Shown here: positions 1 to 64,000 of the stretch, piece by piece
How the letters are laid out: each line of letters starts with the position of its first letter
Numbering within the stretch: the stretch's first letter is position 1
Source: Malacoraja senta
Lineage: Eukaryota
Length of the DNA: 64,000 nt
Assembly: GCA_038087875.1 (NCBI GenBank)
Contig: CM075988.1
Coordinates: forward strand, 7,132,001 to 7,196,000
Direction: 5' to 3'
Notes under the pieces: generated by a model
Database searches by the model: none
Told to the model about the DNA's origin: nothing
The model's input: only the letters and a program-made list of their open reading frames with translations
Translations under genes and position numbers: made by a program

Positions 1-2304
1 GTGTTGAATGCTGATGAGAAGTCTGCAAACAGAAGTCTGGCTGTGGTCTTGGGGATTTCCAGATGCTTATGGATGGTGTTTAAGATGAATATTCTTGCGT
101 CATCGACACCCCTGCCAGCCTGGTAAGCAAACTGCAATGGATCCATCATCGAGCCAGTTGCCTTGGTGATGTGCTCCTTGATGATCCTCTCCATGGCCTT
201 CATGACCAGGGAGGTGAGAGCCACCGGTCTAAGGTGATTCAGGACCTTGGTGGTGCCCTTCTTTGGGATGGGAATCACTGTTGAGTTTTTCCACATCGCA
301 GGGACTGTGCTGCTGGTCAAAGAGCCCTGGAACAGATGCTGGAACACACCTCCCAGCTGCTCAGCACAGTGCCATAGGGTCCGCCCACAGATGTTGTCTG
401 GCCCTGGAGCTGTGTTCTTTTTTAGTCCTTTTGAGGGCTCTCACCACCTCTGATGTGTTGATGTTGAGGCCGGAGTCATCAGGTCTGAGTGTGGAGACGA
501 TTGATTCTAGCTGGGTGCTGTTGTCCTTTTCAAATCTGGTATAGAAGGAGTTGAGATCATTCAGGAGTGAAGTGAAGCTGCTTCCTGCTACCTGAATGGG
601 CTTGCGGCTGGTAGAGACAGAGTTCGCTGCTGCCATGTTCTTGAGGCCCTGCCAAGCCGCACGGAGGTTCCCTTTTCCAAAGGTCTGCTCCACTTTGTTC
701 TTGTATTTCAGCTTGGCAATTTATATGGCCCGCTTGACCTCTCTGTTTACCTCCTTCTTCTCAGCTACAGAACCGGTAAAAAATGTTCTCTTTTTCTTAT
801 TCAATATGTTTTTTAGATCTTTAGTCACCCAGGGTTTATTGTTAGGGAAGATTGTGACCTTCTTGGAGGGGATAATATTGTCTACACAGAAAGTGATGTA
901 TGCTGAGACTGTATCCGCTTGCTCACTGGTGTTGGTGGAGGAGGATGTGAGGGTATTCCAGTCTGTGGTTTCAAAACACCCTTGAAGCCTGTCAATACTG
1001 TCCGGTGTCCACTGTTTGATGTCCTTGATGACTTTCTCTGTTCTCTTTACCACAGGTGTGTAGGCAGGAGCGAGCAGTATGCTGCTGTGGTCAGCAGAGC
1101 CTAGGGGAGGGAGGGAGACGGCTCTGTAGGCTTCTGGGACTGACCCATAGCATTTGTCCAGTGATTTCCCTAGACGGGTGGTGCAATTGACATACTGGTA
1201 GAATCCTTTAAGTGACTTGTCAATGGAACAGTGAATGAAGTCACCCATGATGAATTTGGGGGCGTCCGGAGATATCAGTTCGAGTCTGTTGAGCATATTT
1301 CTTATATGTTCCGTAGCAGTGGATGCATTTGCTCTGGGGTGGATATAAACCAGAATGAAAAACAGTTGTGGGAATTCCCTGGGAAGGTAGAAGGGACGCA
1401 GGGAGACAGCCAAGAGTTCAATGTCAGGGTTGCACAGTTCTTCTCTGACAACAACTGTTTTGCACCAGCGTGGATTGATGTAGAGGCAGACACCACCGCT
1501 ATGGTGCTTGCCAGTCAGTTCAGTATCACGGTCTAACCTTACAGGAGACCCGAAGCCATCTATGTGCATGCTGTCACTGTTGTCACTCCCAGTCAGCCAT
1601 GTTTCAGTGAAAGCAAGAATGGAAGCAGTCCGGTATTCATACATGTGAAAAACGTTAGCTTGCAGTTCATCAGTCTTGTTACGCAATGAGCGCACATTAG
1701 CAAGGATCACTGAGGGAAGTGCACGGTGCTTACTTTCTCCTCGCCTAAGTCTTGCTTTAATACCACCCTTCTTCTTCCTCCCCCGTCTCGTTACCTTCTT
1801 TCTATTGTTGTGCAGGGTGCCTGTCCGGTCGGTTGGGAGTTCACATTGTAGCTCCTCCGGCAACTTGTCTATGGCAGGGGCTTGGTGAGAGCGAAATTGC
1901 AGCTGAAGAAAAAAGTCCCTGCAGTAAGTAATCCGTTGGTTGTCCGGAAGAGTGTATCCATATGATGCAGTGGGCAGATAATCCAAGACGAACAGTAGAA
2001 GCATAAGAGTCCATAGTGTCCATGTGAAGTCCATACTTTGGAGCAGTGAACGCAAAAAGCTAGCTGGCTAATTAACGTTAGCTCGTTGGTCCGGTGTGTG
2101 TGTGAGGTAGTGGCAGCGCCCGCACAACCACACCACGAAGTACTGAACTATACGGCAGCAGTTGACCGTCAATCGATACCCAATGTACTTAAAACGAAAC
2201 AAAGCACTCTCACAAACTCACGTAACGTAACGTAACGAAGAAACAAACATTCAAAGCTACTCTCTGCACTGACCGGTCGACCGCACGAGCAGTGACCCGG
2301 AAGT
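1..2304 (-). mobile_element. Rex1/Babar-clade non-LTR retrotransposon, 5' end present, runs off the left edge of the window
   Basis: ORF 721..2055 encodes an APE endonuclease (ILANVRSL, AFTETWL, GGVCLYIN, IMGDF, LGSADH). An in-frame TAA at 721-723 and a frameshift near 420 follow, then RT motifs (APGPDNI, RPVALTSLVMK, DPLQFAYQAGRGVDDA, LFADFSSAFN). First ATG is at 2034. The 5' end is at about 2304 (ACTTCCGG on the - strand), abutting a CR1. Confidence 0.88.
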
Positions 2305-3858
2305 TATTGCCACCAAAGTGGATAACCTCACATTTATCCACATTATACTGATCTGCCAAACATTTGCCCACTCACCCAGCCTATCCAATCACCTTGCAGT
2401 CTCCTAGCATCCTCCTCACAGATAACACTGCCACCCAGCTTCGTGTCATCCGCAAACTTGGAGATGTTGCCTTCAATTCCCTCATCCAGTTCATTAATAT
2501 AAATTGTAAATAGCTGGGGTCCCAGCACTGAGCCTTGCGGTACCCCACTGGTCACTGCCTGCCATTGTGAAAAGGACCCGTTTACTCCTACTCTTTGCTT
2601 CCTGTTTGCCAGCCAGTTCTCTATCCACATCAATACTGAACCCCCAATACCGTGTGCTTTAAGTTTGTATACTAATCTCTTATGTGGGACCTTGTTGAAA
2701 GCCTTCTGAAAGTCCAGATACAACACATCCACTGGTTCTCCCCTATCCACTCTACTAGTTACATCCTCGAAAAATTCTATAAGATTCATCAGACATGATT
2801 TACCTTTCGTAAATCCATGCTGACTTTGTCCAATGATTTCACCACTTTCCAAATGTGCTGCTATCCCATCTTTAATAACTGACTCTAGCAGTTTCCCCAC
2901 TACCGATGTTAGACTAACTGGTCTGTAATTCCCCGTTTTCTCTCTCCCTCCCTTCTTAAAAAGTGGGGTTACGTTTGCTACCCTCCAATCCTCAGGAACT
3001 ACTCCAGAATCTAAAGAGTTTTGAAAAATTATCACTAATGCATCCACTATTTCTGCAGCTACTTCCTTAAGTACTCTGGGATGCAGCCTATCTGGCCCTG
3101 GTGATTTATCGGCCTTTAATCCATTCAATTTACCCAACACCAGTTCCCGACTAACCTGGATTTCACTCAGTTCCTCCATCTCCTTTGACCCACGGTCCCC
3201 TGCTATTTCTGGCAGATTATTTATGTCTTCCTTAGTGAAGACGGAACCAAAGTAGTTATTCAATTGGTCCGCCATATCCTTGTTCCCCATGATCAATTCA
3301 CCTGTTTCTGACTGCAAGGGACCTACATTTGTTTTAACTAATCTCTTTCTCTTCACATATCTATAAAAACGTTTGCAGTCAGTTTTTATGTTCCCTGCCA
3401 GTTTTCTTTCATAATCTATTTTCCCTTTCCTAATTAAGCCCTTTGTCCTCCTCTGCTGGTCTCTGAATATCTCCCAGTCCTCTGGTATGCTGCTTTTTCT
3501 GGCTAATTTGTACGCATCATCTTTTGCTTTGATACTATCCCTGATTTCCCTTGTTATCCACGGATGCACTACCTTCCCTGATTTATTCTTTTGCCAAACT
3601 GGGATGAACAATTTTTGTAGTTCATCCATGCAGTCTTTAAATGCCTTCCATTGCGTATCCACCGTCAACCCTTTTAGAACTAATTGCCAGTCAATCTTGG
3701 CCAATTCACGTCTCATACCCGTAAAGTTACCTTTCTTTAAGTTCAGAACCATTGTTTCTGAATTAACAATGTCATTCTCCATCCTAATGAAGAACTCAAC
3801 CATATTATGGTCACTCTTGCCCAAAGGGGCACGCACAACAAGACTGCTAACTAACCCT
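2305..3858 (-). mobile_element. CR1 (HER1-like) LINE ORF2 fragment, 5'-truncated, interrupted at its 3' side by the Rex1 element
   Basis: ORF 2343..3887: LGKSDHN (APE C-terminus), [51 protein letters not shown]. Frameshift near the 3' end; sequence stops at the EVIHFGG codons. Confidence 0.93.
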
Positions 3859-4211
3859 AATGGAGGATGACAATGTGAAAGGTTCATCTCTACCCATGTG
3901 GCAAGATCAAGATTGGGCTTGGCTTGATGCCAGGGTCTGAATGCACAAGTTAAGCAGTGCCCACATCTCTGATTTGTTTTTTTAAATAAAGCATTCTAGC
4001 CCTGTGGAAGATTTTGGTTGTGCAATTCTGTTACATTTGTACCTTGGGGATGGAAAGAATGTATTTCCTTCTCAGTCTTTGGGTTTCATTTCCACGTTCT
4101 CAAAAGTAGCTAGGTTGTCCTTCTCTGGTGGATTGTATCCAACAGGTTTGTTTTTTTCCCTTGCCGGGATCACGTCACTTTGTGAATTGTCCTGTGAACT
4201 GATACAAACTG

Positions 4212-7225: not shown

Positions 7226-7648
7226 AGTAATTTCTTGCAGCTCTGGCTGCACATTCTGCCTGCACTCTAGTCCTCCAACTCACTCTAGTCCTCCAGCTCA
7301 CCATTCCAGATTAATAAGTGGACCCAATATCAGACCATCAGGACTTCTGAACTATTGGTGGATTATCAGAGTTTTACTGCTTTATCACATTTCCAGCCAG
7401 ACAAAATAACTGTGCAAATGTCTGCAGAAATAGTCATAGAGTGATACAGTGTGGAAACAGGCCCTTCAGCCCAACTTGCCCACACTGGCCAACGTGTCCC
7501 AACTACACTAGTCCCACCTGCATGCGCTTGGCCAATATCCCTCCAAACTTGTCCGATCCATGTACCAATGTACTATTGCTGACCCTAGTTTAAGTTGAAT
7601 GGATTACTATCTCTAAGGCTTCATCTTCTCTTTGCAAATGATTGTCTT

Positions 7649-7680
7649 GTCTGAAGAAGGGTCTCGACCCGAAACGTCAC
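7649..7680 (+). ncRNA. Minimal type I hammerhead ribozyme motif (consensus copy) in a Penelope-derived short repeat spanning 7649-7780
   Basis: CTGAAGA (7651-57, CUGANGA box), A, stem II GGGTC-TC-GACCC, GAAA (7671-74), CG, TC; predicted cleavage after 7678. Stem I is only about 2 bp. Confidence 0.65.
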
Positions 7681-8779
7681 CCATTCGTTCTCTCCAGCGA
7701 TGCTGCCTGTCCCGCTGAGTTACTCCAGCATTTTGTGTCTACCTTCGGTTTAAACCAGCATCTGCAGTTCTTTCCTACATGTCTTGTGTTATCACTGTGC
7801 AAAACCAGAGCAGCTGGGGTCAATATTAGAATAAATATCATCTTATTATTTCTATACTGCCAGAATGCACATCAGATGAAAACACTTACTTTGATTTGTG
7901 AAGGGATGCAGGGACAGTATACTGAAGTCTTACCTGAAGAACTGAAACCAGAAAAGCTTACTGCTATTTAGATTCTAATCATAACCCAGGCATGTATCAT
8001 GCCATTTTGTTCTGCAATACAGCGAGGAATATATATATATAGTCAATAATATTCGCTGAAACTAAATATCTGACAAAGTCAAAAGCCAAGTCAAAATTCT
8101 TGTGTTGAAAGCAGAGTGTATATACATAGATACTCTTTCGAACCTGTAGACAGAGGCAGCACTGTTATTTCTTCAGATCGTGGAAGCTTGGATGATAAAC
8201 ATGTCTTTCTTTCTGTAATGCACCGATCCCCAAGTGCATTAATTAAAAAGGCTGAGTAAGAAAACTTACCGCTGCTAATTAAAATATCTATTTGAATGTG
8301 TTGCACCTCTGTGCTTAAGATTTCACACAGGAAGGAACTCACAGTTCCATTGGACCAGGGGGAAATAATCTGAATATAGTGTATGAGCCATTAAACCTGT
8401 GAATTGGAATTGGTTTCCTTGGAGACCAGCATGTCAAGACACAGAATGCATCATAATCTAAATATAGAAAAATTCCATCTCCATCACTGGAAGTAGTGTC
8501 TGGGAGATTGGGTGAAGTGCTGGGTGACGACTCTGTCAATGTGACCTCAATAGATGAAGGACATTCAGAAATTGAAATGGATAATAATCGGATGAAATAT
8601 TTTTTGGGGGGCATCTTTTAGTGTCATATTATGGAAACCAAGAGGAAACATAAGAGACTGTAAATGATGGGATCTTAAGCAAAATACAAAGTGCTGGAGG
8701 AACGCGGCAAACTACCTTGAGTCTGAAGAAGGTTCCCACCCGAACCATCATCTATCCTTTTCCATCAACAGATGTTACC

Positions 8780-8960
8780 TCTCTGTAGAGAAGGAATGGG
8801 TGACGTTTCAGGTGGAGACCCTTCTTCAGTCTGAAGAAGGGTCTCCACCTGAAACGTCATCCAGTCCTTCTCTCCAGAGATGCTGCCTGTCCCGCTGAGT
8901 TACTCCAGCTCTTTGTGTCTATCTTTGGTTTAAACCAGCATCTGCAGTTCCTTCCTACAC
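8780..8960. repeat. Head-to-head palindromic pair of Penelope/hammerhead short repeats
   Basis: 50-bp arms 8780-8829 and 8831-8880 with a 1-nt spacer and 3 mismatches; the + copy continues to about 8960. Confidence 0.9.
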
Positions 8961-10015
8961 AGATGTTGCCTGATCTGCTGAGGCCCTCCAGGATGTTGTT
9001 GCTTGCTTATTAAAACCAAGCTCACACTGGGGATGTACTCAACACTGGATGTCAGGGGAGTGGATTTACTTTAAAAAAGACACAAAGTGCTAGAGATACT
9101 CAGTGCTGGAGAATTATCCTGCCAGAGATGCTGCCCGGCCCTCTGAGTTACTCCAGCACTTTGAGTCTTGTTTTTAGTAGACCAGCACCTGCAGTTCTTT
9201 GTTTCTACAATGGATTTATTTTACTTTGATTACATTGTCATGGAATTTGGAACTGGGTGACGATAGAACTATTTTCTGGGAGGAGCCTGGGATCTTTCCT
9301 TGAGTCCAAACTCAGACCAATGTGATGGACTGTGCCAATTTAGTAAGAATTCAGGAGTCTTCTGTGATCATGTTCAAGGTGCTCGTGTGATAAATTGGGA
9401 ATTGCTCTTCTTTTAGAAATGCCACCTGAGTGAGCGTGCTTGCTAAATCCAAATCCATCACAGACGTTGAAGAGATCACGGGGATGCTTCATGGTTGCTG
9501 CCTGACTGCTGAGTATTTCAGATTCACAGCATCTGTAGTATTTTGCTTTTCAATTGCAGATCATTAGAACTGGTGATGATTTGGAGAAACTCATGATCTT
9601 TATAAACCTCGTGTTGCAGTACAACTCTTGGGCATCTTGCTATAACAATCCTGGCATGGAATTTCCAGGTTCTCCTACCAGGAGCAACATTCCTTGGTTT
9701 CTATCATTCTGAGGAAGGGTCCCGACCCAAAGCGTCACGTTTCCATGTCGTGCAGAGATGCTGCCTGACCTGCTGCCTTACTCCAACACTTTGTCTTTTT
9801 TTGTAAACCAGCATCTGCAGTCCTTGTTCCTGCATATTCTTTGGTTTCTTATTTCCCTTCCTAACCTAAGTAGCAAAGAGATGACTTATAGCATTTCTCC
9901 TCTTTGCTCCGATCTCCAATGAGTTTGTCTGCTATTCTAACTGCATCAATGCCACATTACATACCGGTAGTTTAAATGACCACAACATTATGCAGCAAGC
10001 CAAATATTGGGATAG

Positions 10016-11000: not shown

Positions 11001-12941
11001 ACCTCTTAAACTCCAAGAACACATTAACAACAGAAATAGAAATAGGAGCAGACCTCAAGGTTGTCCTGACACTCAATGTGATCATAACTAATCTATGTTG
11101 GCCTGAATTCCCCTTCCCTATCCTCAACCCTCAGTTTCCATAACTCTCAATTCCTCGATCTTTATAAAAGACGGATCTATCTGCATCTTAAATATATCTG
11201 TCCTTCATTAGCCTCAGAGACACTGAATTCCAAAGATTCATTGGGAGACAAAAGTGCTGGAGAAACTCAGTAGGTGCGGCAGCATCTATGGAGCGAAGAA
11301 AATAGGCAACGTTTCAGGCCAAAACCCTTCTTCAGACCCAAAGATTCATTACCCACCAAGATAAGAAATTTCTATGCACCTTAGTTAAAAATGACCGGCC
11401 CGTGATGTGTAGTTTTCGTTCAGAGATACAGCATGTAAACAGGCCCTTCAGCCCATCGAGTCCACGCTGACCATCGATCACCCGTTCACACTAGTTTCAT
11501 GTTATGCCACTTTCTCAACCACTCCCTACACATTAAGGGCAATTTTCTTTTACAGCTGTCAGTTAACACACCAACTCAAAATGTATTTGGGATGTGGAAG
11601 GAGACGGGAGCACCCAGAAGGAACCCATGCTGTCACAGGGAGAACAGGCAAACTCCATACAGACAGCACCCGAGATCCATATCACACCCGGGTCCCTGGT
11701 GCAGTGAGGCAGCACATCCAGCAGCTGTGCTACTCTGCCACCTTATCTTGTAACTATGCCTTCTTGTTCATGACTCACTCTAGTGCAAACATCCTCACAT
11801 CTACTCTGTCTAGACTACTAATGATATTTTATAAGGTCACCTTTCATTCTTCTAAACTCTAAGGAATACAGACCCAAACTGACTACAATTCCCCTTCATG
11901 AAGTCTTCCTGCTGCATCCTCAAAGCAGGTTTGTCAAACATAATTTACCTTTCATAAAGCCATGTTGACCAGATTTGATTATATTCTGCTATCCAGAATG
12001 AGTTTGATTTTTTCCCTCTTTGGTTATTGACTGTGGAAATTTGCCAGCAATGGTTGTTGAACTAACAGGCCTCTAGTTACCTGTCTTCTGCCTTGCTCCC
12101 TCTTTGAACCATAGAGTCACGTTGGCTGTTTTCCAGTCTCCTGATACCGTCCTCGAATTTAGCAAATGTCGAAAACTTTCAACCAGTGGGTATGTACCAC
12201 AACCTGTGTAGCTTCCTTTAAACCTTCTGGTGCAGGAAACTTGTCTGCCGTACATCCTGTCAGGTTCTCTCATACTTTCTATCCCTTGTGATTGGGATTT
12301 TTACAAGTTCATCCCAGTTATTTGTAATTAGTCCATCTGTAATTTTAGTAATATTTGCAGTGTCCTTCACAGTGAAAAGCAATGCAGAAATATTGATTTG
12401 ATCTCTCTGTCATTGCATTGTTTCCTGTTATTAATTAATTAGCCTAATTCACTGGAGGTCCCATATTTACCTCAGCTGCCGTTGGCCTATTTATATATCC
12501 ATAGAAACTCTTACTGTTTGTTTTAATATTGCACACCAGAGTTCCTCCTTCTCGGGAACATTTTTGTCTTTCACCACTGGAATCTAAAGCACATTTCACA
12601 CCTCTGGCCCACCATAACCCTTGCCACTTTGTGTACCTAACTTCTCAATTCAACAAAGATAGACACAAAATGCTGGAATAACTCAGCGGGTCAGGCAGCA
12701 TCTCCGGAGAAAAGGAATAGGTGAGGTTTCAGGTCGAGACCCTTCCTCCGACTCATTCAACATTGATTTCCTTTGTTAATCGCCGATAAGGAGAAATTGA
12801 TGTGAATGAGTAGAAACTATTTCCTCTAATCCAAAGTCAATGACCGAAAGGATTTTTACTGGTGAAGGAAGTTGTAATAAGAAATGCTTTGCGTTCAAAT
12901 GATAGTTGCAGCACAAACCATTCCATTCTTTAAAACAAACT

Positions 12942-13797: not shown

Positions 13798-14237
13798 AAT
13801 CCTGCACACAGAATAGCATGCAGTGACATTCACCACAGCAAGCTCTCAGGTAATGAATGGACACTCTGGAACTACATTAAAGGGAGATATTGGCTATTGT
13901 GCAACAGTAAAGAAGAATGAATCCCTGATTTAAACTTGGCAGAATAAAAATTATCAAGATCAGATCTTATCTGTAGCTCATCCTGAACTTGGTAATTAAA
14001 CCGTAGAAACAAAGAACTACAGATGTTGGTTCATACGCAAAAGGACACAAAGTGCTGGAATAACTTAGCAGGACAGGCAGCATCTCTGGGGAACAGGGAA
14101 AATGTCAGCTATCCTTTTTCTCCAGAGATGCTGCCTGATCTGCTGAGTTCTTCCAGCACGTTATATCCACCAGTCATTAAACCCGTTGATTTTTAAAATC
14201 CAGTTCTAATGTAATGAACCGGATTTGAACCGGATTT

Positions 14238-16518
14238 GATAAGGGAACCCAAGGTAAAGGAACCATTAGGAGGTAGTGACCATAATATGATGTTTTAATC
14301 TGCAAGTTGAGAGGGAGAAGGTATAATCAGAAGTGTCAGTAGTGCAGTTGAACAAAGCAGACTATGGGGGCATGAGGAATGAGCTGGCCAAAGTTGACTG
14401 GAAAGGGACCCTAGCAGGGATGACGGTGGAACAGCAATGGCAGGTATTTCTGGGAATAATCCAGAAGATGCAGGATCATTTCATTCCAAAGAGGAAGAAA
14501 GATTCTATGGGGAGTAAGAGGCGACCGTAAGAGGCGACAGTATATAAAAATAAAAGAGAAGGCGTATAACATTGCAAAGATGAGCGGGAAGCCAGAGGAT
14601 TGGGCAACTTTTAAAGGTCAACAGAAGGTAAGAAAAAAGGCAATACGGGGAGAAAAGATGAAGTGCGAAGGTAAGCTAGCCAACAATATAAAAGAGGATA
14701 GTAAAAGCTTCTTTAGGTTTTTGAAGAGGAAAAAATTAGTTACGACAAATGTGGGTCCCTTGAAGACAGAAACAGGTGAATTTATTATGGGGAACAAGGA
14801 AATGGCAGATGAGTTGAACAGGTACTTTGGTTCTGTCTTCACTAAGGAAGACACAAACAATCTCCCAGATGTATTAGGGGGCAGAGGACCTAGGGTGATG
14901 GAGGAACTGAAGGAAATTCAAATTAGTCAGGAAATGGTATTGGGTAGACTGATAAATCCCCAGGGCCTGATGGTCTGCATGCCAGGGTACTCAAGGAGGT
15001 GGCTCTAGAAATCGTGGATGCATTGGTGATCATTTCCCAATGTTCTATAGATTCTGGATCAGTTCCTGTGGATTGGAGGGTAGCTAATGTTATCCCGCTT
15101 ATTAAGAAAGGAGGGTGAGAGAAAGCAGGGAATTATGGAACAGTTAGCCTGACGTCGGTGGTGGGGAAGATGTTGCAGTCGACTATTAAAGATGTAATAG
15201 CGGCGCATTTGGATGGCAGTAACACGATCAGGCCAAGTCAGCATGGATTTACCAAGGGGAAATCGTGCTTGACTAATCTTCTGGAATTTTTTGAGGATGT
15301 AACAAATAAAATGGAAAAGGGAGAGCCAGTGGATGTTGTGTACCTGGACTTTCAGAAAGCCTTTGATAAGGTCCCACACAGGAGAATAGTGGGCAAAATT
15401 AGAGCACATGGTATTGGGGGTAGGGTATTGACATGGATAGAAAATTGTTTGGAAGACAGGAAACAAAGAGTAGGGATTAACGGATCCCTTTCAGAATGGC
15501 AGGCAGTGACTAGTGGGATGCTGCAAGGCTATTTACAATATACATTAATGATTTAGATGAAGGAATTAAAAGTAACATTAGCAAATTTGCAGATGACACA
15601 AAGCTGGGTGTCAGTGTGAACTGTGAGGAGGATGCTATGAGGATGCAGGGTGACTTGGACAGGTTGGGTGAGTGGCCAGATGCTTGGCAGATGCAGTATA
15701 ATGTGGATAAATGAGGTTATCCACTTTGGTGGCAAGAACAAGGAAGGCAGATTAATATCTGAATGGTGTCGTGTTAGGAAAAGGGGAAGTACAACAAGAC
15801 CTGGGTGTTCTTGTACATCAGTCACTGAAAGTAAGCATGCAGGTACAGCAGACAGTGAAGAAAGCTAATGGCATGTTGGCCTTCATAACGAGAGGAGTTG
15901 AGTATAGGAGTAAAGAGGTCCTTTTGCAGTTGTACAGGGCCCTGGTAAGACCACACCTGGAGTATTGTGTGTAGTTTTGGTCTCCTAATTTGAGGAAGGA
16001 CATTCTTACTATTGAGGGAGTGCGGCGTAGGTTCATGAGGTTAATTCCCGGAATGGCGGGACAGTCATATGCTGAGAGAATGGAGTAACTGGACTTATAT
16101 TTACTGGAATTTAGAAGGATGAGAAGGGATCTTATAGAAACGTATAAAATTATTAAGGGATTTAACATGCTAGATGCAGGAAACATGTTCCCGATGCTGG
16201 GGGAGTCCAGATCCAGGGGTCACAGTTTAAGAATAAGGAGTAGGCCATTTAGAACGGAGATGAGGAAAGATATTTTCATCCAGAGGGCAGTGAATTTGTG
16301 GAATCTCTGCCTCAGAAGCCAGTGGAGGCCGATTCACTGGATGCATTCAAAAGAGAGTTAAATAGAGCTCTTAGGGCTAGCGGAATCAAGGGATATGGGG
16401 AGAAGGCAGGAAAGGGGTACTGATTGAGGATGATCAGCCATGATCATGTTGAATGCCGGTGCTGGCTCGAAGGGCCGAATGGCCTAATCCCGCACCTATT
16501 GTCTATGCATCTATGTTT
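14238..16518 (+). mobile_element. CR1 LINE, 5'-truncated, about 2.3 kb, multiply frameshifted ORF2 with complete 3' end
   Basis: ORF fragments [45 protein letters not shown]; 3'UTR GGGCCGAATGGCCT and CTATG-type tail. Confidence 0.92.
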
Positions 16519-17022: not shown

Positions 17023-17669
17023 GTAATATCTTCATTCTGTAGCTTGTTGCTATCATTTGAGGGTGAAAATTGATTCGGAGGCACATTTTGTTTAGGTGAG
17101 ATTTTCACTTGCAAGATTTGTCAAGGAGTGATATTATGTTAAAGCATGATTCGTATTTGTTTTGGTTCTCACTTACATGATTTATATTAAGAACCCATTT
17201 GCACTGAGGCATGAATCATTCGTGTTATTAAGGCATGCTTCTCACTAGCTTTGGCATAAAATGATTTGACTTTTTTTGTTTGTGAGTTTGCATGAAGTTA
17301 TCAGACAAATTATAATCTTTTATGACTATACGTAAAATTTTATAATAGAAGGTAAGCTATAAGTAAATAGACAGGAACATTAAGTAGAAACAAGGAACGG
17401 CAGATGCTGGTTTACACAAATGAGACAAAACACTGGAGTAACAACGGGATAGGCAGCATCTCTGGAGAGAAGGATTGGGTAACGTTTTAGGTCGAGACCC
17501 TTCTTCAGACTGTACGATACCTTTAAGTAAACAGGCAGGAACATTGGGTAGAAACAAGGAACTGCAGATGCTGGTTTACACAAAAGGATACAAAGTGCTG
17601 GAGTGACTCAGCGGCCCTGGAGAACAGATAGGTGACGTTTTGGTTTGGGACCCTTCTTCAGACATTAGG

Positions 17670-18135: not shown

Positions 18136-19177
18136 ACAGGGATTAGTCAGAAGCTACGCTTCATGTGGGGAAGGCAGAACAAAACAAATATAAATATGCC
18201 CGACCGCCAGAGTATCTGTAACAAGGGGAAAGATACAGATCAGGATCTCAGAGTTGGTAGTATGTGTAGGGAAGAACTGCAGATGCTGGTTTATTCCAAA
18301 GATAGACACACGATGCTGGAGCCACTCGGCGGGCCAGGCAGCATCATAGGAGAAAAGGAATAGGTGACACTTTGGGTTAGAAGCCATCCTCAGAAAGCTT
18401 TGTATCTGAGCATTCGGTGTCTGAGGAAGGGTTCCGACCCAAAGCATCTCCTGTTCCTTTTCTCCAGGGTTGGTGCCTGGCCCACTGAGTTGCTGCTGAA
18501 TTTTGTGCCTAGTTCAGAGTTGGCCATGTCTGTATTATTCTAGCGAGTAGGTGTTAAGCAGGTGGTTGCATTGTCAGAGAAATGATACATCAATGAGCGT
18601 GCCATTTTCCTGAGTCATTGAAACTTGCTCTGGGTTAGACAGGGTTTTTAGAACGTGGAGTGCAGCTGAACAGGACTGCGATTCAGAGGACATTGACAGA
18701 AGGTAAGAGAGAATCTTATTGGAATAAAGATTATTCTAGATGAAGGAATATTGCAGAGTAGACTAAGGTGAAGATGAGCACAAGTGCATAAATGTGTGGA
18801 GATGCACACACTAGTTCTCACCTGGGGTGAACATAGAAAATAGGTGCAGGTGTAGGCCATTTGGCCCTTCGAGCCAGCACCACCATCCAATATGATCATG
18901 GCTGATCATCCAAAATCAGTACCCCGTTCCTGCTTTTCCCCCATATTTCTTGATTCCTTTATCCCTAAGAGCTAAATCTAACTCTCTCTTGAAAACATAA
19001 ATTAGAAGCCTGAACAAATTAAAAGTGCAAGTGAGCATTTACTTTTGGCAATGTTATTCACAGACTCTTACAGACCAAGGAAAGGGGTGATGTGCCTAAA
19101 AGTTCAAAGGTACAAAAGCTTTTAATGTTTCATGCCAATGACATCAGTCAGATAATAAAAAGTTGATGTAGACACAA

Positions 19178-19460: not shown

Positions 19461-21616
19461 TAGCAAGTATGGGAGGAGGTACTACTAAGTTTAATGAATT
19501 TTGGAAAGTCGTGCAACAACAATAATAAAGAAATTAAAATTTATCCTATTAGAGGCTGATTAAAAAAACCTTATGCTGAGTGCAAGAAGTCTAGGAAATT
19601 TCTGAAATGTGTATAGCACAGCTTTATTGATCAAAATATTATCAGTCTAACAAAATCGGAGGCATTGCCGGAGAATGTGGAGCATATGGGAAATAGCGAT
19701 GAAAATATAATTAGGTTCAGGGTAGTTGTAGAGTTTAACGGTAAATATCAAACTGGAGGTGAGAGATAATTTATGTTTAATTGAAAATGTATTTGGTCCT
19801 AATGAGGTGGAAACAAAGATGCTAGGAGTTGTAACTGATTGATAAGAGATCCAAACATTTAAGGTGGAGGTCAAACACATTCCCAAAGGTTTGGGACTTT
19901 CCATATCAGAGTGTGTAAAATGGAATACTTTAACTTTGTCATCGCTCTTTATGTGTTGACTCTTTGCATACCTTGGGTATGCAAAACAAAGAATATCACT
20001 GGGACACGTCACATGTAACAATAAAGTATCATTTATTCATTCATTCAGTATTAAAGAACTAAAAGATTGATCAGAAGTCTTGAATGTTAATAAAACTGAG
20101 TTGTTGTTTTTTTTAATGTGTTCATTCAATAGTTCATCAAGGAATTCTTGAGCCGATGATCAAAAAAATGATGTTTTGCAGATCAACTGGAAGATCAGGA
20201 TGGCCATACATGTGTTGCAAACATTGAGTGCTGTTTGTTAGAATTAATCAGTGCTAGAGAGGGTGATAGGTTACCGAAAGCCTCCCTTCTGCTCATCCTT
20301 AATGACAGTCACGAGTGTGGCTTTTTCGTGCCAAAAACATGCATCCCTTTGAGGGGCAGAATTAAGATAATCTTGTTTGCATATACTGGTATGAGTGTGG
20401 TGACAACATCGCAATCATCACCTCATGGCTGGGCAGTTCATAAGACCATTGTTTTTGCATTGGTTTCTGCAGCCTATAACTTGGACGGCCCATGAGGATT
20501 GAGGGTAACATGCTTCCACTTCAGTTTTGACATGGTTGATGAGGCCATTGTGTGAGCTGCAGTGGGAAGATGGGACTTGGTGGAAACGACAGGTGTGTAG
20601 GTAAGGGGGTGGCGTGCTCCTTCCTCATTATGCTGGTGTCTTGTGTAACTGGACGGTTTCCAAAGCCATGCAGGATGCTGCTGCTCTATTGTTAATAGTT
20701 TTTTTTTTAAGTCATAAAGTGCTGGAGTAACTCAACGGGTCAGGTAGCATCCCTGGACAACATGGATAAGTGATGTTTCTACCTATTTTGCCTCTAAATA
20801 GTCTGAAGTCCCCAGAATTTGCAACTGATTTTCCTCTCTGCCAAGGATCGGTGAAATGTCACCTATCCATATCCTCGGGGATGCTACCTGACCTGCTGAA
20901 TTACTCCAGCATTTTGTGTCTTTTTTTTGGTGTTAATCAGCATCTGCAGTTCCTTGTTTCTCCATTATTAGTGGTCCTGGGCCAGGATTCCCACACATTG
21001 ATGGGGATGTTATATATTTGTGAGGAGATTTTGCCAATATATTTAAATCTTGTCTGTCTACTTGATAGTCTTTTGCTGTGATAGAGCTTGGAACACTGTC
21101 GATTTTGGGATTCTGCTCTGGGCCTACGTGTAACATGATCTGCTTATTGATTAGAGCTTGGTGATGGAGGACTGCCAGTGGACTTAAAGGATTCTGCAGA
21201 GATGGCATTTACAGCATCTTTTTAATGCCTTGAGGTGCCTCCTTCAGGCAGCCAGCTCTCAAAGTGCACTCGAGACCAAGGGTCACTTCTCCCAGTAAAC
21301 GATGTGTTGGATTTGGGGTTACTTGGAACAGCGGCATGGTGGCATGGTAGAGCTATTGCCTTGCATCTCCAGAGACCCGGGTTTGATCCTGACTACAGGC
21401 GCTGTCTGTGTGGAGTTTGCACGTTCTCCCCGTGACCTGCATAGGTTTTCTCCAAGATATTCGGTTTCCTCCCACATGACCAGTAATAGTGATCAGTGCC
21501 GGGTCCCCCGTTTGTTCTATAGATTATTTTTTCGATGAGAATGTAGGTGCCATCAGTGGATTACAACTATGAATGTGGTGAAAGGAATGGCTGATAGCAT
21601 TCATCCCTGACAAATG

Positions 21617-32553: not shown

Positions 32554-33080
32554 GTATTGACTCCTCACACAGAGAAGCAAGAAACTGCAGATGCCGTAAT
32601 CTGGAGCAAAAATAGGAGAGCTGCTGGAGAAACTCAGCGTGCCAAGCAGCAACTGTCGAGGGAAATGGATGGTCGATGTTTTTGGTTGGGACTCGTTATC
32701 TGGACTGAAAAAGCGAAGGGGAAATAGCCAGTGTAAAGAGGTGGGGAGAGGAGAGGGCTCTTTATACTGGCTATTTCCCCTCTGGTCTCAGTTTAGATGA
32801 AGGGTCCCAACCCAAAACATTTACTATCCATTTCTCTCCATAGTTGCTGCCTGATCCATTGAGTTCCTCCAACAGCTTGTCTTTTTTCCTACTAATTCTT
32901 CACGGACTGATAGCCACATCAATTGAAACATCTATTAAATAATGGAGCAACTGATGATAAAGTACAAAAAGATTTATGTGGTTTCACTAGATTGATTTCT
33001 GGATGAGCTTAATGTTCAGCGCGGGGAGATTAAAGAGAGAGAGTCAATATTCTCTGGTGTAGAAGTGTCGCATTAAATTG

Positions 33081-36396: not shown

Positions 36397-37514
36397 ACAA
36401 AGGTTGTAGGTTTCAACCAAAAGATCCAATTTGTATGAACAAGGGCAGAAAAGTGTGTTAAGGATGTGATTAGATGCATACCTGACGCACTTATGTATAT
36501 GGTTCACAGAATAGGTTAACTAGGTGATATTTCACTTGGAAAAAGTGGTTAAAGACACTTTAGGATCCTGAGCTTTCTAAGTGGAGGCATAGGTAAGTAC
36601 AAGAGCAAGGAAGGAATGGTGAACCACTGGATTAGCTACAATTGGAAGAATGTATCTTGGCATCACACTTTAGGAAATATGTGAAGGGTTTAGAGAGCAT
36701 GAGAAAATATATATTCTGGAGATGACGGGCTTTTGTGGCACGGATGGAGTGGAAGTGGAGGTTGCTCTCCTGAGAATCAAGAAGGATACAAGTAAAGCCG
36801 AGAGATAGTTAAAGACATGAAGTGGGTATAGAGGAACAGTTCCGATCAGTGGAGAAGGCACATTGAATGAAGGTGATTGGCAAAAGAATCAAAAGTAACA
36901 AGGAAAGTCTATTGGTATAAATAGTTAGAATATAGAATATTGTAGTTAGAATATGGAATTTATTGTTGGAGTCGGATTTTGTGGTAAGATTCGAAAAGGT
37001 AGCTGGGCAATTATCTGAAAGGAAGGAATTTTCATAAGCTCTGTTTGCATATGGTTGCCACAGATGTGATGGGTCATTTGGCCTCGTACTGTAACCATTC
37101 TATGAAACGTTCTCCAAGGCGATTTGGGAAAAGCTATTTCACCTATCTTTGACATAAACAGGTGCAAATGCAACCAATTTTTAGAGAAACAAGGAACTGC
37201 AGATGCTAGTTTACAAAAAAAGACACAAAGTGCTGGAGGTAACTCAGCGGGTCAGGCAGTATCTCTGGAGAACCTGGATAGGTGATGTTTATGGTTTTGG
37301 GACTCTTCTACAGACTGATAGTAGGGGGTTGTTGTGAGAGAGCTGGTAGAGAGGAGGGGGAAGACAAAGCCTGGTGAGTGTTACGTAGATAGACACAAAA
37401 TGCTGGGGTAACTCAGTGGGACAGGCAGCATCTCTGGAGAGAAGGAATGGGTGACGTTTCTTCAGATATAGATGGGGGTGGGGCATCTATTCTTCAGATA
37501 TAGATGGGAGGTGT

Positions 37515-38806
37515 TTATCACTTTTATTACCTATAGTCAATAACCCTTCGTTTAATCCTTCTATTATAGATAAAGCTTATACACAATGGGATAGATTAGG
37601 AATTAAAACGCTTGGTGACTTGTATGAAACTGGAAAATTACTTTCATTTCAACAATTACAAATAAAATATAAACTCGGAAATAATCAATATTTTAAATAT
37701 TTTCAAATATGCGACTATTTGAAAAAATATACAAAAGATCATTATAATAACCCAGCAGATGTACTGGACGAGGCAATGCAGATAAAAGCGGAATCAGCAA
37801 ACTTAATATCATATTTGTATAATATTATCTTAAATGCACAAATACCATCTACGGAGGGTATCAGAAGAGACTGGGAACAAGAGTTAGCTATTAAAATTTC
37901 AAAGGAAAGTTGGAATGAATACTTATTAAACGTGCATAAATGCTCGATTAATGTAAGACACACTTTAATACAATTTAAAATTTTACATAGATTATATTAT
38001 TCGAAAACTAAAATTCATAAAATTTTCCCAAATGTATCATCTATTTGTGATAAATGTTAATCCCAAGAAGCTACCATAACGCACTCATTCGTTTCTTGTA
38101 CAAAAATTCAAAAATTTTGGAATGAAATTTTTGAAATCTTTACAAAGTTATTTAAAACAAGACTGATACCCAAAGCAGAATGGATTATCTTCGGTATAAC
38201 GGAAGATGGTCCAGAACTAAATGTGTTTCAAAAGAAACTAATGGACTATGGGTTAATAACTGGAAAAAAGCTAATTCTAAAATTTTGGAAGAAGGCTCCA
38301 ATACTAACTATAAATATGTGGATTTCAAATATGTTTGAAACATTACACCTAGAAGAGATAAGACTCCTCCTAGCAGGTAAACCAGATCATTTCCACCTGA
38401 CGTGGTCTGCATTTATAGAATTATTACAAACATAGGGTGCAAAAGTACTTTAAAAAAAATTGAGGTCAGGTAAGGGGGGATGATAGTTGAAGAGTTGGTA
38501 TGTCCAATTTGCATAATGCTCATAAAAATATTTGTTTCTCTCTTTTTCCTCTTTCTCTCTTTCTTTCTTTCCTAGGGTCTATTTCTTAACTCTTTTTCTT
38601 TTGTTTTTAATTTTGCTCTTATAGGGTCTTCGTCCTTTTTTGTTGTCACATTTCCTACACTTCCACTTTTTCCTTCACTTTCTTCTTTCTTTCAATCTTT
38701 TCCTTTTCTAGTGTAAAAAATAAATGGAGTACATTAATTGTAAGAAGATATAAATGACAAGTACTAATGTATGTGGTTGTAATGTAATGTACTTCTAATA
38801 AAATAC

Positions 38807-40274: not shown

Positions 40275-40495
40275 GATACTGACTGACCTGCTGACTGAAC
40301 CGCAGATGCTGGTTTAAACCCAAGATAGACACAAATTGTTGGAGCAACTCAGTGGGACAGGCAGCATCTCTGGAGAGAAGAAATGGGTGACGTTTCGGGT
40401 CTGAAGAAGGGTCTCGACCCAAAACGTCACCAATTCCTTTTCTCCAGAGATGCTGCCTGTCCCACTGAGTTACTCCAGCATTTTGTGTCTGTCTA
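40275..40495. repeat. Head-to-head pair of Penelope/hammerhead short repeats
   Basis: - copy 40275-40400 directly joined to + copy 40401-40495. Confidence 0.8.
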
Positions 40496-42039
40496 TGATG
40501 ATGGGCCTTTGGTTTGTCTATTGTTTCTCATTTGAGGGTTTTGCAGAACAATGAGATATCTTCCTACAGTAAAATTCTGATAATCTGGGACATTAGCGGT
40601 GCCAGGTTTGCAGATGTTTTGGACTGTTACTGTACTGTACTTTTGCATGGTACAGTAGTAACATGCAAAAGCAAATGAATGCAGGAACTGGGTACTGATT
40701 GTGGATGATCAGCCATGATGACATTGAATGGCGGTGCTGGATCGAAGGGCCGATTGGCCTACTCCTACACCTATTGTCTATTGTCATGTATAATACATTT
40801 TCTCGTGAACCCAGTGAGTTGAAAGAGAGTTGGAATAATATCAGCATTCTGGATCCCGACTCTGGCCATGAAAATCCCCACGTGCCTGAACATGAACCAT
40901 GCATCGGTTTGAAGAAGGGTCCCGACCTGAAATGTCACCTATCTATTTTCTCCAGAGATGCTGCCTGACCTGCTGAGTTACTCCAGCACTTCGTGTCTTT
41001 TTTTGTAAGACAGGATTTGCAGTCCCTTATTTCTACATGTAGAATAGTCAGCACAGGAAAGGACCCTTTGGCCACAATTTACTTGACCTTTTGTGTTCTA
41101 GAACTCAGCGCTGGCTCTGTCTGCAACCACCACCACTTATACTCTTGACCCTTGACACAGTCCAGACTAACGACTGAGCATGATACCAGAACTTTTAAAC
41201 AATGAGATGCAATTGGAGTTTTACTGTAGGTGATCTCTGATTATCTATCTTATATACAGGGAGAGAAGGGATTACTCAGGAGCGAACACAATCCAATGTT
41301 GCCACTGAATTTTTACACAGAATATCGTCTATTAAAATGTTAATGTAATCCAGTATTGATGTCACCATTCAGAGTGCAGGGCAGATCTTTCCATTTGAAA
41401 ACCCCAAAACTGCAGGCAGACTTTTGACATTTATTTAGACCAGTGATGGACATGGGTTTTAGGAACTAGGGGTACGCTAAGGTCCGTGAGACTGAGGTTG
41501 GGAAGGAAGGGGAGGAGGGGATTTTTTTTTAATGTGCGATCATACCCATGTAAGAGTACAAGAATGCATAACTTGTTTATTGTGTATTTGTAATAGTTTA
41601 TTGTGTATTATATGTCACAGCTGCTTTCTTGCATTAGAGACAGCGGTTGATTGGCCGCCAAATAATCGGGCACAAAAAATTGACAAATAGGAAAACAATA
41701 AAATCGGAATTCCGATTTAAATCAGAAGAATGTCATGCCTAATCTGCAGCAAAGATACTAGTATCCGCTCTGGTATCTTTGATCTGCATTTCCTTCCTAT
41801 TGAAGAAGAACCCTGGCCCAAAACAACTCCTAATCCATTCCCTCCACAGATGCTGCCTAGCCCGCTGAGTTCCTCCAGCACTGTGTTTTTTATTTAACTC
41901 TGAAATTGAAGATAGACATAAAGCTAGAGTCACTCAGCAGGACAGGCAGCGACTCTGGAGAGAAGACCCTTCTTCAGACGGAACTGAACTCTCGTCGGTG
42001 AGAGTACTTGTGATTGTCTGAAGAAGGGTCTTGACCCGA

Positions 42040-42900
42040 AAAGCCACCCACTCCCGGAGCCACCGCTCGTCCTGCTGAGCCACCCCAGCCCCCTCCCCCC
42101 CCCCCCCCGGGTCCACCTTCAACTCCAGAGCCAAACAAAAAACACAGAGTGCTGGACGAACTCAGTAGGCCAGGCGGCATCTGTGAAGGAAACGGACCAC
42201 GAGCCGCCACGGGCCAGGGCTCCCCCCCTACAGGAAGGAACCGCAGATGCAGCCGTCCCCGCAGAACGGCAAATGATTTCGGGAATGCCGAGGCGAGAGG
42301 GAGTGAGAGAGCGAGAGAGAGACGAGATGGGGAGCGAGAGGGAGCGTGCGAGAGAGAGAGGGAGGGTGGGAGAGAGCAAAAGACAGAGACACAGCGAGAG
42401 AGGGAGATACGATGAGGGATGGAGGGAGAGAGAGGGGAGAGAGGAGAGAGAGAGAGGGAGAGCGAGAGAATAATAAAATAGCGTGGGTGAATGACTTGAC
42501 CTGCACACCAGAAGAAGCCCGTGCTCACGGTCCGGAGCCCTCAATGACAGTGAGTTAAGAAATTCTCCCGTGAATTTTATTCAAAGGAACACGGTATCAT
42601 TAATACTTGGTCAAAACACAATTACATGTACTGAGGAATGTGGATCGATGTATTGACGACACATTGTATAACTACGTGTCAACTACTGGCTGTTAACAAG
42701 TGCTAACAGTGGTAGTTAACAAATCATTTTCATCTCATGGGCGGTGCAGCGTGACTCGTAACGATTATCCATGGTCGTTTAAAAAAATAAATCCGTATTT
42801 AACAACTCTGACTCCCTTCTAGTACAGAAATTGGATATAAACTGGAAACTGAAAAGTAGGGGAACGCCGTCCCCCTGCGTTCCCCCCCCCCCCCCCATTT
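42040..42900. promoter_or_regulatory. CpG-retaining, GA-microsatellite-containing intronic region; candidate internal promoter and alternative first exon ending at 42549
   Basis: Local CpG enrichment even in repeat-derived sequence; GA-rich tract 42295-42470; donor ACA|GTGAGT at 42550. Confidence 0.45.
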
Positions 42901-45596: not shown

Positions 45597-46169
45597 AGTT
45601 GGAGTTTGTAGTGTTCTATAGCCTCATAGTTGTTGGGAAGAAGCTGCTCTGAACCTGGACACGTGTACGAAGGAACTGCAGATGCTGTTTTAAACCGAAG
45701 ATAGACACATAAAGCTGGAATGGACCGGCAGCATCTCAGGAGAGAGGGAATGGGTGACGTTAAGAAAGGTCTCGACCCGAAACATCACCCATCCCTTCTC
45801 TCCAGAGATGCTGCTTGTCCTGCTGAGTTACTCCAGCTTTTTGTGTCTATCTTCTGAACCTGGACATTACCGTTTTCAGACTTCAGATTAGACTCAACCA
45901 GCAATGACCTTGGCAATAATCCACATGAAGTAGTGAAATGAATCACCAATTTCTTCTCTCTTCCTCTTCTCCTTTCACCCAGTAGATGTGGGTGATAGTG
46001 AACTTCCTCTCATGTGTTCTGAAGTACTGCTAGGTGGAGATATCGCCCTGGCTTCCATCAGCAAGTCATCACAAAGCTCAATTTATTATATCTTGGACAA
46101 AAGGTGAACTTCAAATCTTCTGGTTGCACCTTTTAATACATTGATTTTCTTTCTTTTTTTTGTTTTCAG

Positions 46170-53667: not shown

Positions 53668-54244
53668 CGAATATATTATTATAATACAGATGTTAAAATG
53701 TCATGATATTTTACTGCACAAACATTTGGCAAACGGCTTCAGAAACAATTAATGCATTTTTAGGTTATGGAAGGGATAGAGGTGGAGAGTTTGAAGGAAG
53801 AAATGCATGAAGAAACAAGGAACTGCAGATGCTGATTTACAAAAGAAGACATGGAGTGCTGGAACAGCTCAGCAGGTCAGGCAACATCACAGGAGGACAT
53901 GGATAGGTGACATTTTAGGCCGGTGGAACCCTTCTTCAGACTGATTGTCTGAAGAAGGGTCCTGACCCTGAACATCAGCTATCCATGTTCTTTCGAGATG
54001 CTGCCTGATCTGCTGAGCTACTCGAGAACTCTATATCGTCAAGAGATTCATGAACTTGGGTTCCAGCTTGCCGATTTTCTTTTTAAATTGAAGGATGCAT
54101 AAGAGGCATATACTTTGCTCTCCTTGATGCAGTTGGGATTGATCTTAAACTGCACCCAAGTCACGAGTTAATTAATGTGTTTTGCAATGGTAGGCTCTGT
54201 TCACTTTAAGAAGTGGCTCTATAATAAAATGCCTGTAGGCAATG

Positions 54245-62569: not shown

Positions 62570-64000
62570 CGATAGACACAAAATGCTGGAGTAACTCAGC
62601 GGAACATGCAGCATCTCTGGAGAGAAGGAATGGGTGACTATTCGGGTCGAGACCCTTCTCCAGACTGACGTCAGGGGGGAGGGAGATAGATAGATAAGGA
62701 AGTGTGAAGGTGTGAAAACAGGGCAAAGGGAATGGAGATCAAGGAAAATGTAGAATAGATCATTGTTAGCTGGGAGAAGGTAACAGCAAAGCAAACAGAG
62801 ACAAAATGTAGTCGGAGACAGTAAAACTGGTCGGAGAACTGGGAAGGGGAAGGGATGGAGAGAGAGGGAAAGCAAGGGTTACTTGAATACAATACAATAC
62901 AATACAATACAATTTATTTGTCATTTGGACCCCGTTGAGGTCCAAACGAAATGTCGTTTCTGCAGCCATACATTCCAAAATGAAAAGACCTGAGACACAA
63001 CACAATTTACACATACATCCATCACAGCACTGTGATGGAAGGCAAAAAAAACCGTATCTCTCCACTGCACTCCCCCCCCCCCCCCCCCAATGTCAGAGTC
63101 AAAATCAAAGCCCCCGGCGGGCGATGGTGATTGTCCCACGGCCATTAAAGCCACGCCGGATGATGCAAGGTCGCGCACCGGGTCTTGAAGTTAGAGAAGA
63201 CAATGTTCATACCGCTGGGGGTAAGCTACCCAAGCGAAATATGAGGTGCTGTTCCTCCAATTTGCACTGGGCCTCACTCTGACAATGGAGGAGGCCCAGG
63301 ACAGAAAGGTCAATGTGGGTAAGGGAGGGGGAGTTAAAGTGTCCAGTAACCGGGAGATCAGATAGGTTTCAAGTGGATTGAGCGGAGATATTCAGCGAAA
63401 CAATCGTCGAGCCTGCGTTTGCTCTCGCCGATAGACAGGAGTCCACACCTAGAACAGCGAATACAGTAGAACCTCTGCTTCACCTAAAAGATGGTTGGGG
63501 TCCTTGGACGGAGTCGAGGGGGGAGGTATAGGAACAGGTGTTCTCTTGCGGTTGCAGGGGAAAGTGCCTGGGGAGACCGTGCTTTGAGTGGGAAGGGACG
63601 AGTTGACCAGGGAGTTGCGGAGGGAACGGTCTCTGCGGAAAGGGGTGGAGATGAGAAGATGTGGAGGTGGGATCCTGTTGAAGGTGGCGAAAATGTCGGA
63701 GGATTATGTGACAGCTGATGGGGTGGAAAGTGAGGACCAGGGGGACACTCTCCCTGTTACGACTGGAGGGATGGGGAGCAAGAGCGGAGCTGCGGGATAT
63801 CGAGGATGGCCTAGTGAGGGCCTTGTCTATGACGGAAGAGGGGAACCTCAGATGTCCTGGTATGGAACACCTCATCTTGGGCACAGATGCGGGGTAGACG
63901 GAAGAATTGGGAGTATGGGATAGAGTCTTTACAGGAAGCAGGGTGGGAAGATGTGTAGTCTAGATAGCTGTGGGAGTCAGTGGGTTTAGAGTAGATGTCA
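62570..64000 (-). mobile_element. Penelope-like retroelement: RT thumb, GIY-YIG endonuclease and 3' terminal repeat with hammerhead-like motif; degraded
   Basis: - strand reads YLDYTSSHPASCKDSIPYSQF..L.RIC (63870-63970) and YCIRCSRCGLLSIGESKRRL..F.E (63390-63470). Ends CAGTCTGGAGAAGGGTCTCGACCCGAATAGTCACCC...TGTGTCTATC. Confidence 0.88.
62888..63183 (-). mobile_element. GC-rich retroposon, copy D (short, probably 5'-truncated), inserted in the Penelope element
   Basis: TSD CTTGAA at 62882-87 and 63184-89; hairpin 63018-63039; tail GACAAATAAA followed by (TTGTA)5. Confidence 0.75.

What the first reader, a model, noticed from the sequence alone, without database searches (positions are those of the whole stretch)
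7649..7780. About 30 dispersed Penelope-derived repeats carrying a minimal hammerhead ribozyme motif, with the parent element in the window
Seen: the unit CTGAAGA-A-GGGTC-TC-GACCC-GAAA-CG-TC-ACC...GATGCTGCCTG...CCAGCATCTGCAGTTC recurs on both strands, whole or partial (e.g. 7649, 8831, 9709, 11245, 13221, 17385, 17549, 32345, 39889, 40401, 47930, 54710). The same sequence ends the GIY-YIG/RT element at 62570-62670. Known: CUGANGA, stem II, GAAA and UH form the hammerhead core, and Penelope-like elements carry minimal type I hammerheads with a tiny palindromic stem III thought to act as dimers. Inference: a very high-copy retrozyme-like or solo terminal-repeat family. Stem I is only 2-3 bp, so activity is uncertain.
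Basis: partly seen in the sequence, partly recalled or inferred. Interest (0 to 1): 0.72.

Follow-up and report, generated by a model that had tools for sequence, protein, structure and literature searches.

The report
Penelope retrotransposon end-pieces with minimal hammerheads
The repeat is the short end-piece of a Penelope-like jumping gene in a shark- or skate-type genome, carrying a small self-cleaving RNA motif already known from such elements; it is very dense here, but almost every copy is broken and cutting is untested.

Summary
Real, and denser than claimed: 56 hits in 33 loci, 7.9% of the window, none in a reversed control. The unit is a minimal type I hammerhead motif (7649-7680, predicted cut after 7678) followed by a 65- or 100-nt tail. 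The same unit ends a broken RT-thumb/GIY-YIG Penelope-like element, probably Neptune clade, on the minus strand at 64000-62572. Only 1 of 27 full-span copies (7649) has a perfect core; CpG decay breaks most others, and the parent copy is broken too. The copies are separate insertions with target-site duplications, not tandem retrozymes. 36 of 56 hits start within the first 6 model positions, at the ribozyme's 5' edge, and none starts at the cut site. 24 hits form 12 head-to-head pairs, 11 of them with one long and one short tail. Best model: internally primed reverse transcription of uncleaved element RNA, running off a fixed 5' end. Cleavage and expression could not be tested. The kind is known (Cervera 2014; Frangieh 2024), and this scan noted it before in two other genomes. 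The unexplained fixed 5' edge and the density are the modest novelties.

The parts
7649..7680 (+). Minimal type I hammerhead motif, the only copy with a fully intact core: stem I 5' GU 7649-7650; CUGAAGA 7651-7657; extra A 7658; stem II 7659-7670; GAAA 7671-7674; palindromic ACGU 7674-7677; predicted cut after C7678; stem I 3' AC 7679-7680
   Evidence: layout as in PMC4209133
7681..7779 (+). Long tail. The short form ends near 7741-7746. Predicted hairpin 7714-7729 and helix 7699-7705 with 7756-7762
   Evidence: end positions; fold; 88% and 92% of cells paired
7643..7650 (.). Left copy of the 8-bp target-site duplication (right copy 7780-7787); it overlaps the first two bases of the unit
63180..64000 (-). 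Broken 3' part of an EN+ Penelope-like ORF: RT thumb, Cys linker (one Cys lost at a frameshift), GIY-YIG region; runs off the window
62885..63179 (-). Unrelated 300-bp insertion into the element at its ORF end, bounded by a 6-bp duplication and ending in AATAAA plus (TATTG)n
62666..62884 (-). Pyrimidine-rich 3' UTR (pseudo-LTR) of the element, ending in TGACGTCAG; no other copy of this UTR in the window
62572..62665 (-). Hammerhead motif (three core changes) plus short tail that ends the parent element
8778..8960 (.). Head-to-head pair joined at CAG-T-CTG, inserted into an older copy (8721-8781 and 8953-9018)
40297..40497 (.). Example head-to-head pair (long and short tail). Others: 9064-9199, 14012-14183, 18272-18515, 20710-20954, 32580-32885, 41908-42088, 45671-45860, 47758-48049, 53818-54038, 54254-54465
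11243..11337 (-). Example solo short-tail copy with a 13-bp target-site duplication ending right before the unit's first G; core differs only by C11.1 to U

Best explanation
These are dead-on-arrival, extremely short insertions of a Neptune-type Penelope-like retrotransposon. Step 1 (shown): the unit is the last 95-130 nt of the element, hammerhead motif plus tail. Step 2 (inferred from the Anolis element): the element's RT-endonuclease nicks DNA and starts reverse transcription inside the RNA at one of two sites about 35 nt apart, giving short and long tails. Step 3 (shown as a pattern): the template was uncleaved RNA, because copies keep the whole ribozyme and none starts at the cut site. 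Step 4 (inferred): synthesis runs off a fixed RNA 5' end at the ribozyme's 5' edge, most likely the transcription start (TCAGTCT fits a recalled initiator consensus). Step 5 (pattern shown, chemistry inferred): priming on both target strands, or fold-back at CAG-N-CTG, gives head-to-head pairs with one long and one short tail inside one target-site duplication. The ribozyme was under selection in source elements and probably cuts slowly, as a dimer or with protein help. In inserted copies it decays neutrally.
For: Only one PLE protein region in the window, next to the unit. Its homologues are elasmobranch RT and GIY-YIG proteins, best named hit Leucoraja erinacea at 71%. Starts: 36 of 56 at model positions 1-6, 0 of 56 at 28-34. 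Two end clusters, about 92-108 and the model's end. 11 of 12 pairs mix long and short tails against 50% expected, P=0.003. Duplications flank 7 of 12 pairs and 9 of 19 solos, control 28 of 300. In 4 of 4 laid contig sets the summed depth falls 33- to 85-fold across 62658-62670, and strand-switch joints sit at 62663-62667. N7 varies in 10 of 36 copies against 7 of 111 for A6, G8 and A9, P=0.001. Core CpG positions are 36% changed, like other CpGs (24-30%). In Anolis: two internal RT starts, both strands extended, uncleaved RNA the main template, protein-assisted ribozyme (PMC11167929).
Against: No RNA end, expression or cleavage data: only assembled contigs were on offer. The 5' edge also reads as a 3' splice site (pyrimidine tract plus CAG), as in D. 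virilis. Folding puts stem II at probability 0-0.27 and stem I near 0 for copy 7649, and the dimer minimum-energy folds are not the active form. RNAalifold finds no consensus structure. Stem II has one two-sided change in 27 rows. The core-versus-tail test is marginal away from the edge (P=0.056), rows were chosen for spanning the 5' edge, and copies are related. Local alignments favour starts at the model's first position. A few strand-switch joints lie at 62633, 2 nt from the cut site (19 contigs in 3 runs), so some cleaved templates may be used. Summed contig depth is not a copy number.
Confidence: 0.7

Rival explanations
1. The 95-130-nt unit is an independent non-autonomous family (SINE- or retrozyme-like), transcribed from its own master copies and mobilised in trans by the Penelope protein.
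For: Sharp shared boundaries; diagnostic columns point to at least two subfamilies; the UTR is far rarer than the unit; a few head-to-tail joints 62665 to 62574 in all 4 runs (3, 15, 1 and 1 contigs); PLE-derived retrozymes are described (bioRxiv 2026.07.22.740005).
Against: No tandem of intact ribozymes in the window. The two tail lengths and inverted pairs are ordinary PLE insertion marks. Several copies carry upstream pyrimidine-rich UTR sequence (32700, 32796, 37315, 62665).
Confidence: 0.15
2. The fixed 5' edge is made by RNA processing or by template switching, not by the transcription start: a 3' splice site at CAG/TCTG, or fold-back of the cDNA at the small palindrome just upstream.
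For: Pyrimidine tract plus CAG precedes the core in the copies that extend upstream. In D. virilis the intron end maps to the 5' end of helix I. Junctions at CAG-N-CTG (8829, 54840). Palindromes at inverted junctions were read as self-priming in rotifers.
Against: Copies share no upstream exon: the 14 bases before the edge differ between copies, and at 7649 and 11337 they are target-site duplication. Solo copies without any inversion end at the same place.
Confidence: 0.12
3. The motif no longer cleaves in this lineage, even in source elements; it survives as a promoter or protein-binding sequence.
For: 2-bp stem I; a competing helix hides the core in most folded copies (mean unpaired probability 0.02-0.46 in 8 of 8 copies); no copy starts at the cut site. 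Anolis ribozyme mutants still insert in vitro. 8 of 9 Xenopus dimers did not cleave.
Against: Variation falls on N7 and loop 2 and spares the catalytic bases, the pattern expected of selection for cleavage. A zebra shark homologue ends in a peptide matching the same frame of the motif (P0004, SLMKGLRPKR), indirect evidence that it is old and conserved.
Confidence: 0.2

Closest known systems
Minimal type I hammerheads in pseudo-LTRs of metazoan Penelope-like elements (Cervera and De la Pena 2014, PMC4209133)
   Same: CUGANGA core, extra base before stem II, G10.1-C11.1, palindromic 15.2-16.2 with no loop 3; mostly single dispersed motifs, some pairs on opposite strands; found in Neptune elements of fish.
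   Different: Stem II 4 bp and stem I 2 bp, against 7-8 and 4-5 bp in Schistosoma (2-bp stem I is reported for D. virilis). No shark or skate name in the one supplement table searched; the other file was not searchable. Local density is about one hit per 1.1 kb.
Poseidon element of Anolis carolinensis, PAc (Frangieh et al. 2024, PMC11167929)
   Same: Ribozyme followed by two fixed 3' ends 30-40 nt apart; copies made from uncleaved RNA; both DNA strands extended.
   Different: Different clade (homologues here carry the Cys linker). In PAc the ORF starts at stem II; here the first ATG after the cut site opens only 16-17 codons. A fixed 5' edge of copies is not described in the parts read.
Neptune clade of EN+ Penelope-like elements (Craig et al. 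2021, PMC8557442; Arkhipova et al. 2013, PMC3846280)
   Same: RT, CX2-5CxxC linker, C-terminal GIY-YIG; heavy 5' truncation; inverted truncated copy at the 5' end; tail on one end only; 8-10-bp duplications.
   Different: Here nearly all insertions have no coding sequence at all. No tree was built, so Nematis is not excluded.
Non-LTR retrozymes of animals (bioRxiv 10.64898/2026.07.22.740005)
   Same: Non-coding, type I hammerhead, derived from PLE pseudo-LTRs; reported in one chondrichthyan.
   Different: Defined as tandem repeats with at least two complete ribozymes in a row; not seen in this window.

Membership tests
Minimal type I hammerhead | Core C3 U4 G5 A6 N7 G8 A9, G12 A13 A14, U16.1 H17 | tested here: met
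   Intact in 1 of 27 full-span copies (7649) and in the window consensus; majority letters in laid contigs restore the core at the parent's changed sites (75-95%)
Minimal type I hammerhead | Stem II closed by G10.1-C11.1, extra base after A9 | tested here: met
   4 bp, 87% of cells paired; only one two-sided change
Minimal type I hammerhead | Palindromic minimal stem III for dimer formation | tested here: met
   ACGU at 7674-7677; duplex only -1.7 kcal/mol
Minimal type I hammerhead | Stem I of 4-5 bp | tested here: not met
   2 bp, 77% of cells paired, predicted probability about 0; a 2-bp form is reported for D. virilis
Minimal type I hammerhead | Self-cleavage as dimer or with protein help | not testable with these tools
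   No raw RNA reads
Rfam hammerhead families | Score against a curated model | tested here: not met
   No hammerhead family among 9 matches at E<=1
EN+ Penelope-like element | RT followed by C-terminal GIY-YIG endonuclease | tested here: met
   Window 63999-63216 aligns to P0004, P0005 and P0026 (E to 5e-28), whose relatives score RVT_1 and weakly GIY-YIG; the window fragments alone give no relevant Pfam hit
EN+ Penelope-like element | Hammerhead in the terminal repeat, optional 30-40-nt tail, inverted truncated copies, short duplications | tested here: met
EN+ Penelope-like element | Two pseudo-LTRs around a full ORF | not testable with these tools
   Element runs off the window; no genome held
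Neptune clade | CX2-5CxxC linker between RT and EN | tested here: inconclusive
   Complete in P0004 and P0005; broken by a frameshift in the window copy; also a mark of Nematis
Neptune clade | Placement in an RT tree | not tested
   No reference clade sequences in hand
Non-LTR retrozyme | Tandem units with at least two complete ribozymes | tested here: not met
   One complete core in the window; rare head-to-tail joints elsewhere
Non-LTR retrozyme | Abundant circular RNA | not testable with these tools
   No RNA holder on record

The most novel reading that the evidence does not exclude
The ribozyme sits at the very 5' end of the element's transcript, and the mass of 95- and 130-nt copies are run-off products primed in the 5' leader. 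They would be a genomic record of the transcript start and of a two-subunit, two-site priming step (one long and one short tail per pair). If the window is typical, this would be one of the most abundant ribozyme-derived repeats in a vertebrate: of the order of a million copies in a genome of about 2 Gb (size recalled), with tens of thousands of intact cores held off by a helix with the tail until the element's protein binds.
Probability: 0.35. Interest if true: 0.55.

Novelty: new member of a known kind. Interest (0 to 1): 0.33.

Why it matters
How Penelope-like elements transpose, and what their hammerheads do, is still open; one element has been tested in vitro among the papers found. A family this dense offers a large natural sample of insertion products. 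The fixed 5' edge, the absence of copies starting at the cut site and the long-plus-short rule in inverted pairs can be counted genome-wide and would constrain the mechanism. The ribozyme itself is a known kind. For the host, most copies are inert, but inverted pairs would fold into long hairpins if transcribed (-86 to -138 kcal/mol for 5 of 5 pairs folded), and some lie in introns of a PDE9A-like gene.

Tried and rejected
Rfam scan: no hammerhead; its microRNA-like hits at 14058-14152 and 45710-45828 are head-to-head pairs. Whole-genome counts: no genome held. Pattern scans for relatives in viral and metagenome contigs: 0 and 0. Expression: no RNA holder listed; the two runs guessed as RNA were flagged probably DNA, and all four were contigs. 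Pfam on five window fragments and a PDB sequence search with the GIY-YIG fragment: nothing relevant. RNAalifold: no consensus structure. The first pair count had the two tail helices misregistered and was redone (one search dropped for helices 3-4, one search used). A coding role for the 16-17-codon frame in the tail is not supported: several variable columns fall on second codon positions. Strand bias against the host gene: none (25 plus, 31 minus). One duplication called at 54718 lies inside the element; one search found a flanking one there. Lunse et al. 2017 on dimer cleavage was not held and is known only through the review PMC6765202 (passages). Searches for a description of this family in skates or sharks (listings only) showed none; Repbase and Dfam were not available, so it may be catalogued there.

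Full report
Setting. The window is animal intron-type DNA. Three exons of a PDE9A-like gene lie on the plus strand near 54600, 59490 and 61677. The best named homologues of the retroelement protein are from a skate and two sharks, so the host is most likely a cartilaginous fish (inference). No genome was held. Whether 7649 lies inside the gene was not established.

Observation. The unit is real. A profile built from 28 window copies finds 56 hits in 33 loci, 25 plus and 31 minus, covering 7.9% of the window, and none in the reversed window; a second model finds 58. Median divergence from the window consensus is 13.5%, range 6.6-30.6%, for the 37 hits longer than 80 nt. The stretch 62570-62880 is held at half its words or more by 14 of 23 listed runs, from six coded organisms; one may be the window's own source.

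Ribozyme anatomy. At 7649-7680: 2-bp stem I, CUGAAGA, one extra A, a 4-bp stem II closed by G10.1-C11.1, GAAA, CG, UC and the predicted cut after 7678. This is the minimal type I layout of Cervera and De la Pena (main text read to the start of the methods). A descriptor hits 4 places in the window and none in 30 shuffles. Of 27 copies spanning the motif, only 7649 is perfect; four more differ only by C11.1 to U. Two CpG pairs fall on C11.1-G12 and on the palindrome and are changed in 30 of 84 cells, like other CpGs, so inserted copies decay neutrally. Signs of selection in source lineages are modest: N7 varies far more than its neighbours (10 of 36 against 7 of 111), and non-CpG core bases vary less than the tail (4.6% against 10.3%, P=0.007; P=0.056 for inner positions; 22 of 56 rows used). 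Against activity: Rfam gives no hammerhead hit, the predicted fold pairs the core and stem II with the tail, and RNAalifold finds no consensus. A hand-drawn structure with two tail helices is 87.5% paired in 27 rows, but it was derived from these sequences and is weak evidence.

Parent. The minus strand at 64000-63180 holds a frameshifted RT-thumb, linker and GIY-YIG region, the only such region in the window. A 300-bp insertion with a 6-bp duplication separates it from a 220-nt pyrimidine-rich UTR, the ribozyme motif and a short tail ending at 62572. Shark homologues carry the Cys linker that marks Neptune and Nematis (passages of PMC8557442). This copy's ribozyme has three core changes; laid contigs show the canonical letters in 75-95% of depth. 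It is a relative of the source, not the source.

Insertion pattern. 36 of 56 hits start at model positions 1-6 and none at 28-34. In four contig sets from two coded organisms, summed depth drops 33- to 85-fold across the same edge; this is not a copy number. 3' ends fall in two groups about 35 nt apart, matching the optional tail of these elements and the two internal priming sites shown for the Anolis element (main text read into the methods). Twenty-four hits form 12 head-to-head pairs; 11 have one long and one short arm, none has two long arms, while unpaired copies split 13 to 13 (P=0.003). Duplications of 8-17 bp flank 7 of 12 pairs and 9 of 19 solos, against 9% of random controls, so pairs are single events. 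Inverted copies and one-sided tails are described for these elements (passages).

Mechanism. Shown: origin of the unit, boundaries, pair rule, decay. Inferred: internal priming on uncleaved RNA, run-off at a fixed 5' end, and two-strand priming or fold-back for pairs. The fixed end is best read as the transcription start, since copies share nothing upstream; a splice acceptor or a fold-back palindrome at the same spot remain possible. Some joints 2 nt from the cut site hint that cleaved RNA is sometimes used; they are few, and the 2-bp stem I match could also produce them. No RNA evidence was available.

Comparison and verdict. It works like the minimal hammerheads of Penelope-like elements and meets their sequence features except the length of stem I. 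It fails the tandem criterion for retrozymes (bioRxiv 2026.07.22.740005, parts 1-3 of 5 read, supplements closed). Two earlier notes of this scan reached a like reading on other genomes; they are not independent support. Searches found no paper on this family in skates or sharks, but repeat libraries, one supplement of PMC4209133 and Lunse 2017 were not seen. Verdict: a correct catch of a known kind, notable for density and for a sharp, unexplained 5' edge. Interest 0.33.

Noticed in passing
window 54590-54630, 59480-59567, 61677-61760 (+): Three exons of a PDE9A-like phosphodiesterase gene; the parent element lies antisense just downstream of the third.
   Followed up: partly
window 60092-60332: 240-bp element with 19-bp perfect terminal inverted repeats, MITE-like; family not identified.
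   Followed up: no
window 59580-59684: Long near-perfect inverted duplication beginning just after the exon at 59480-59567; gives a chance microRNA-family hit.
   Followed up: no
window 721-2067, 2343-3995, 14460-15556, 37455-38060: Fragments of LINE-type endonuclease and reverse transcriptase frames; family names not tested.
   Followed up: no
window 60478-60760 and 62150-62370: Two copies of a tRNA-like SINE; resemblance to the elasmobranch HE1 family is recalled, not tested.
   Followed up: no
window 62666-62675 (-): TGACGTCA, a CRE-like palindrome (recalled consensus), abuts the ribozyme's 5' edge; 86% of depth in one run has A in place of the central G.
   Followed up: partly
window 17393-17663 and 41801-42195: A local tandem duplication of a copy with its flank (period about 153 bp), and a four-piece nested inverted arrangement that does not fit the pair rule.
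   Followed up: no
protein P0004, residues 507-522: A zebra shark PLE protein model reads through the UTR and ends in a peptide matching the hammerhead's frame, suggesting the same motif in sharks.
   Followed up: partly
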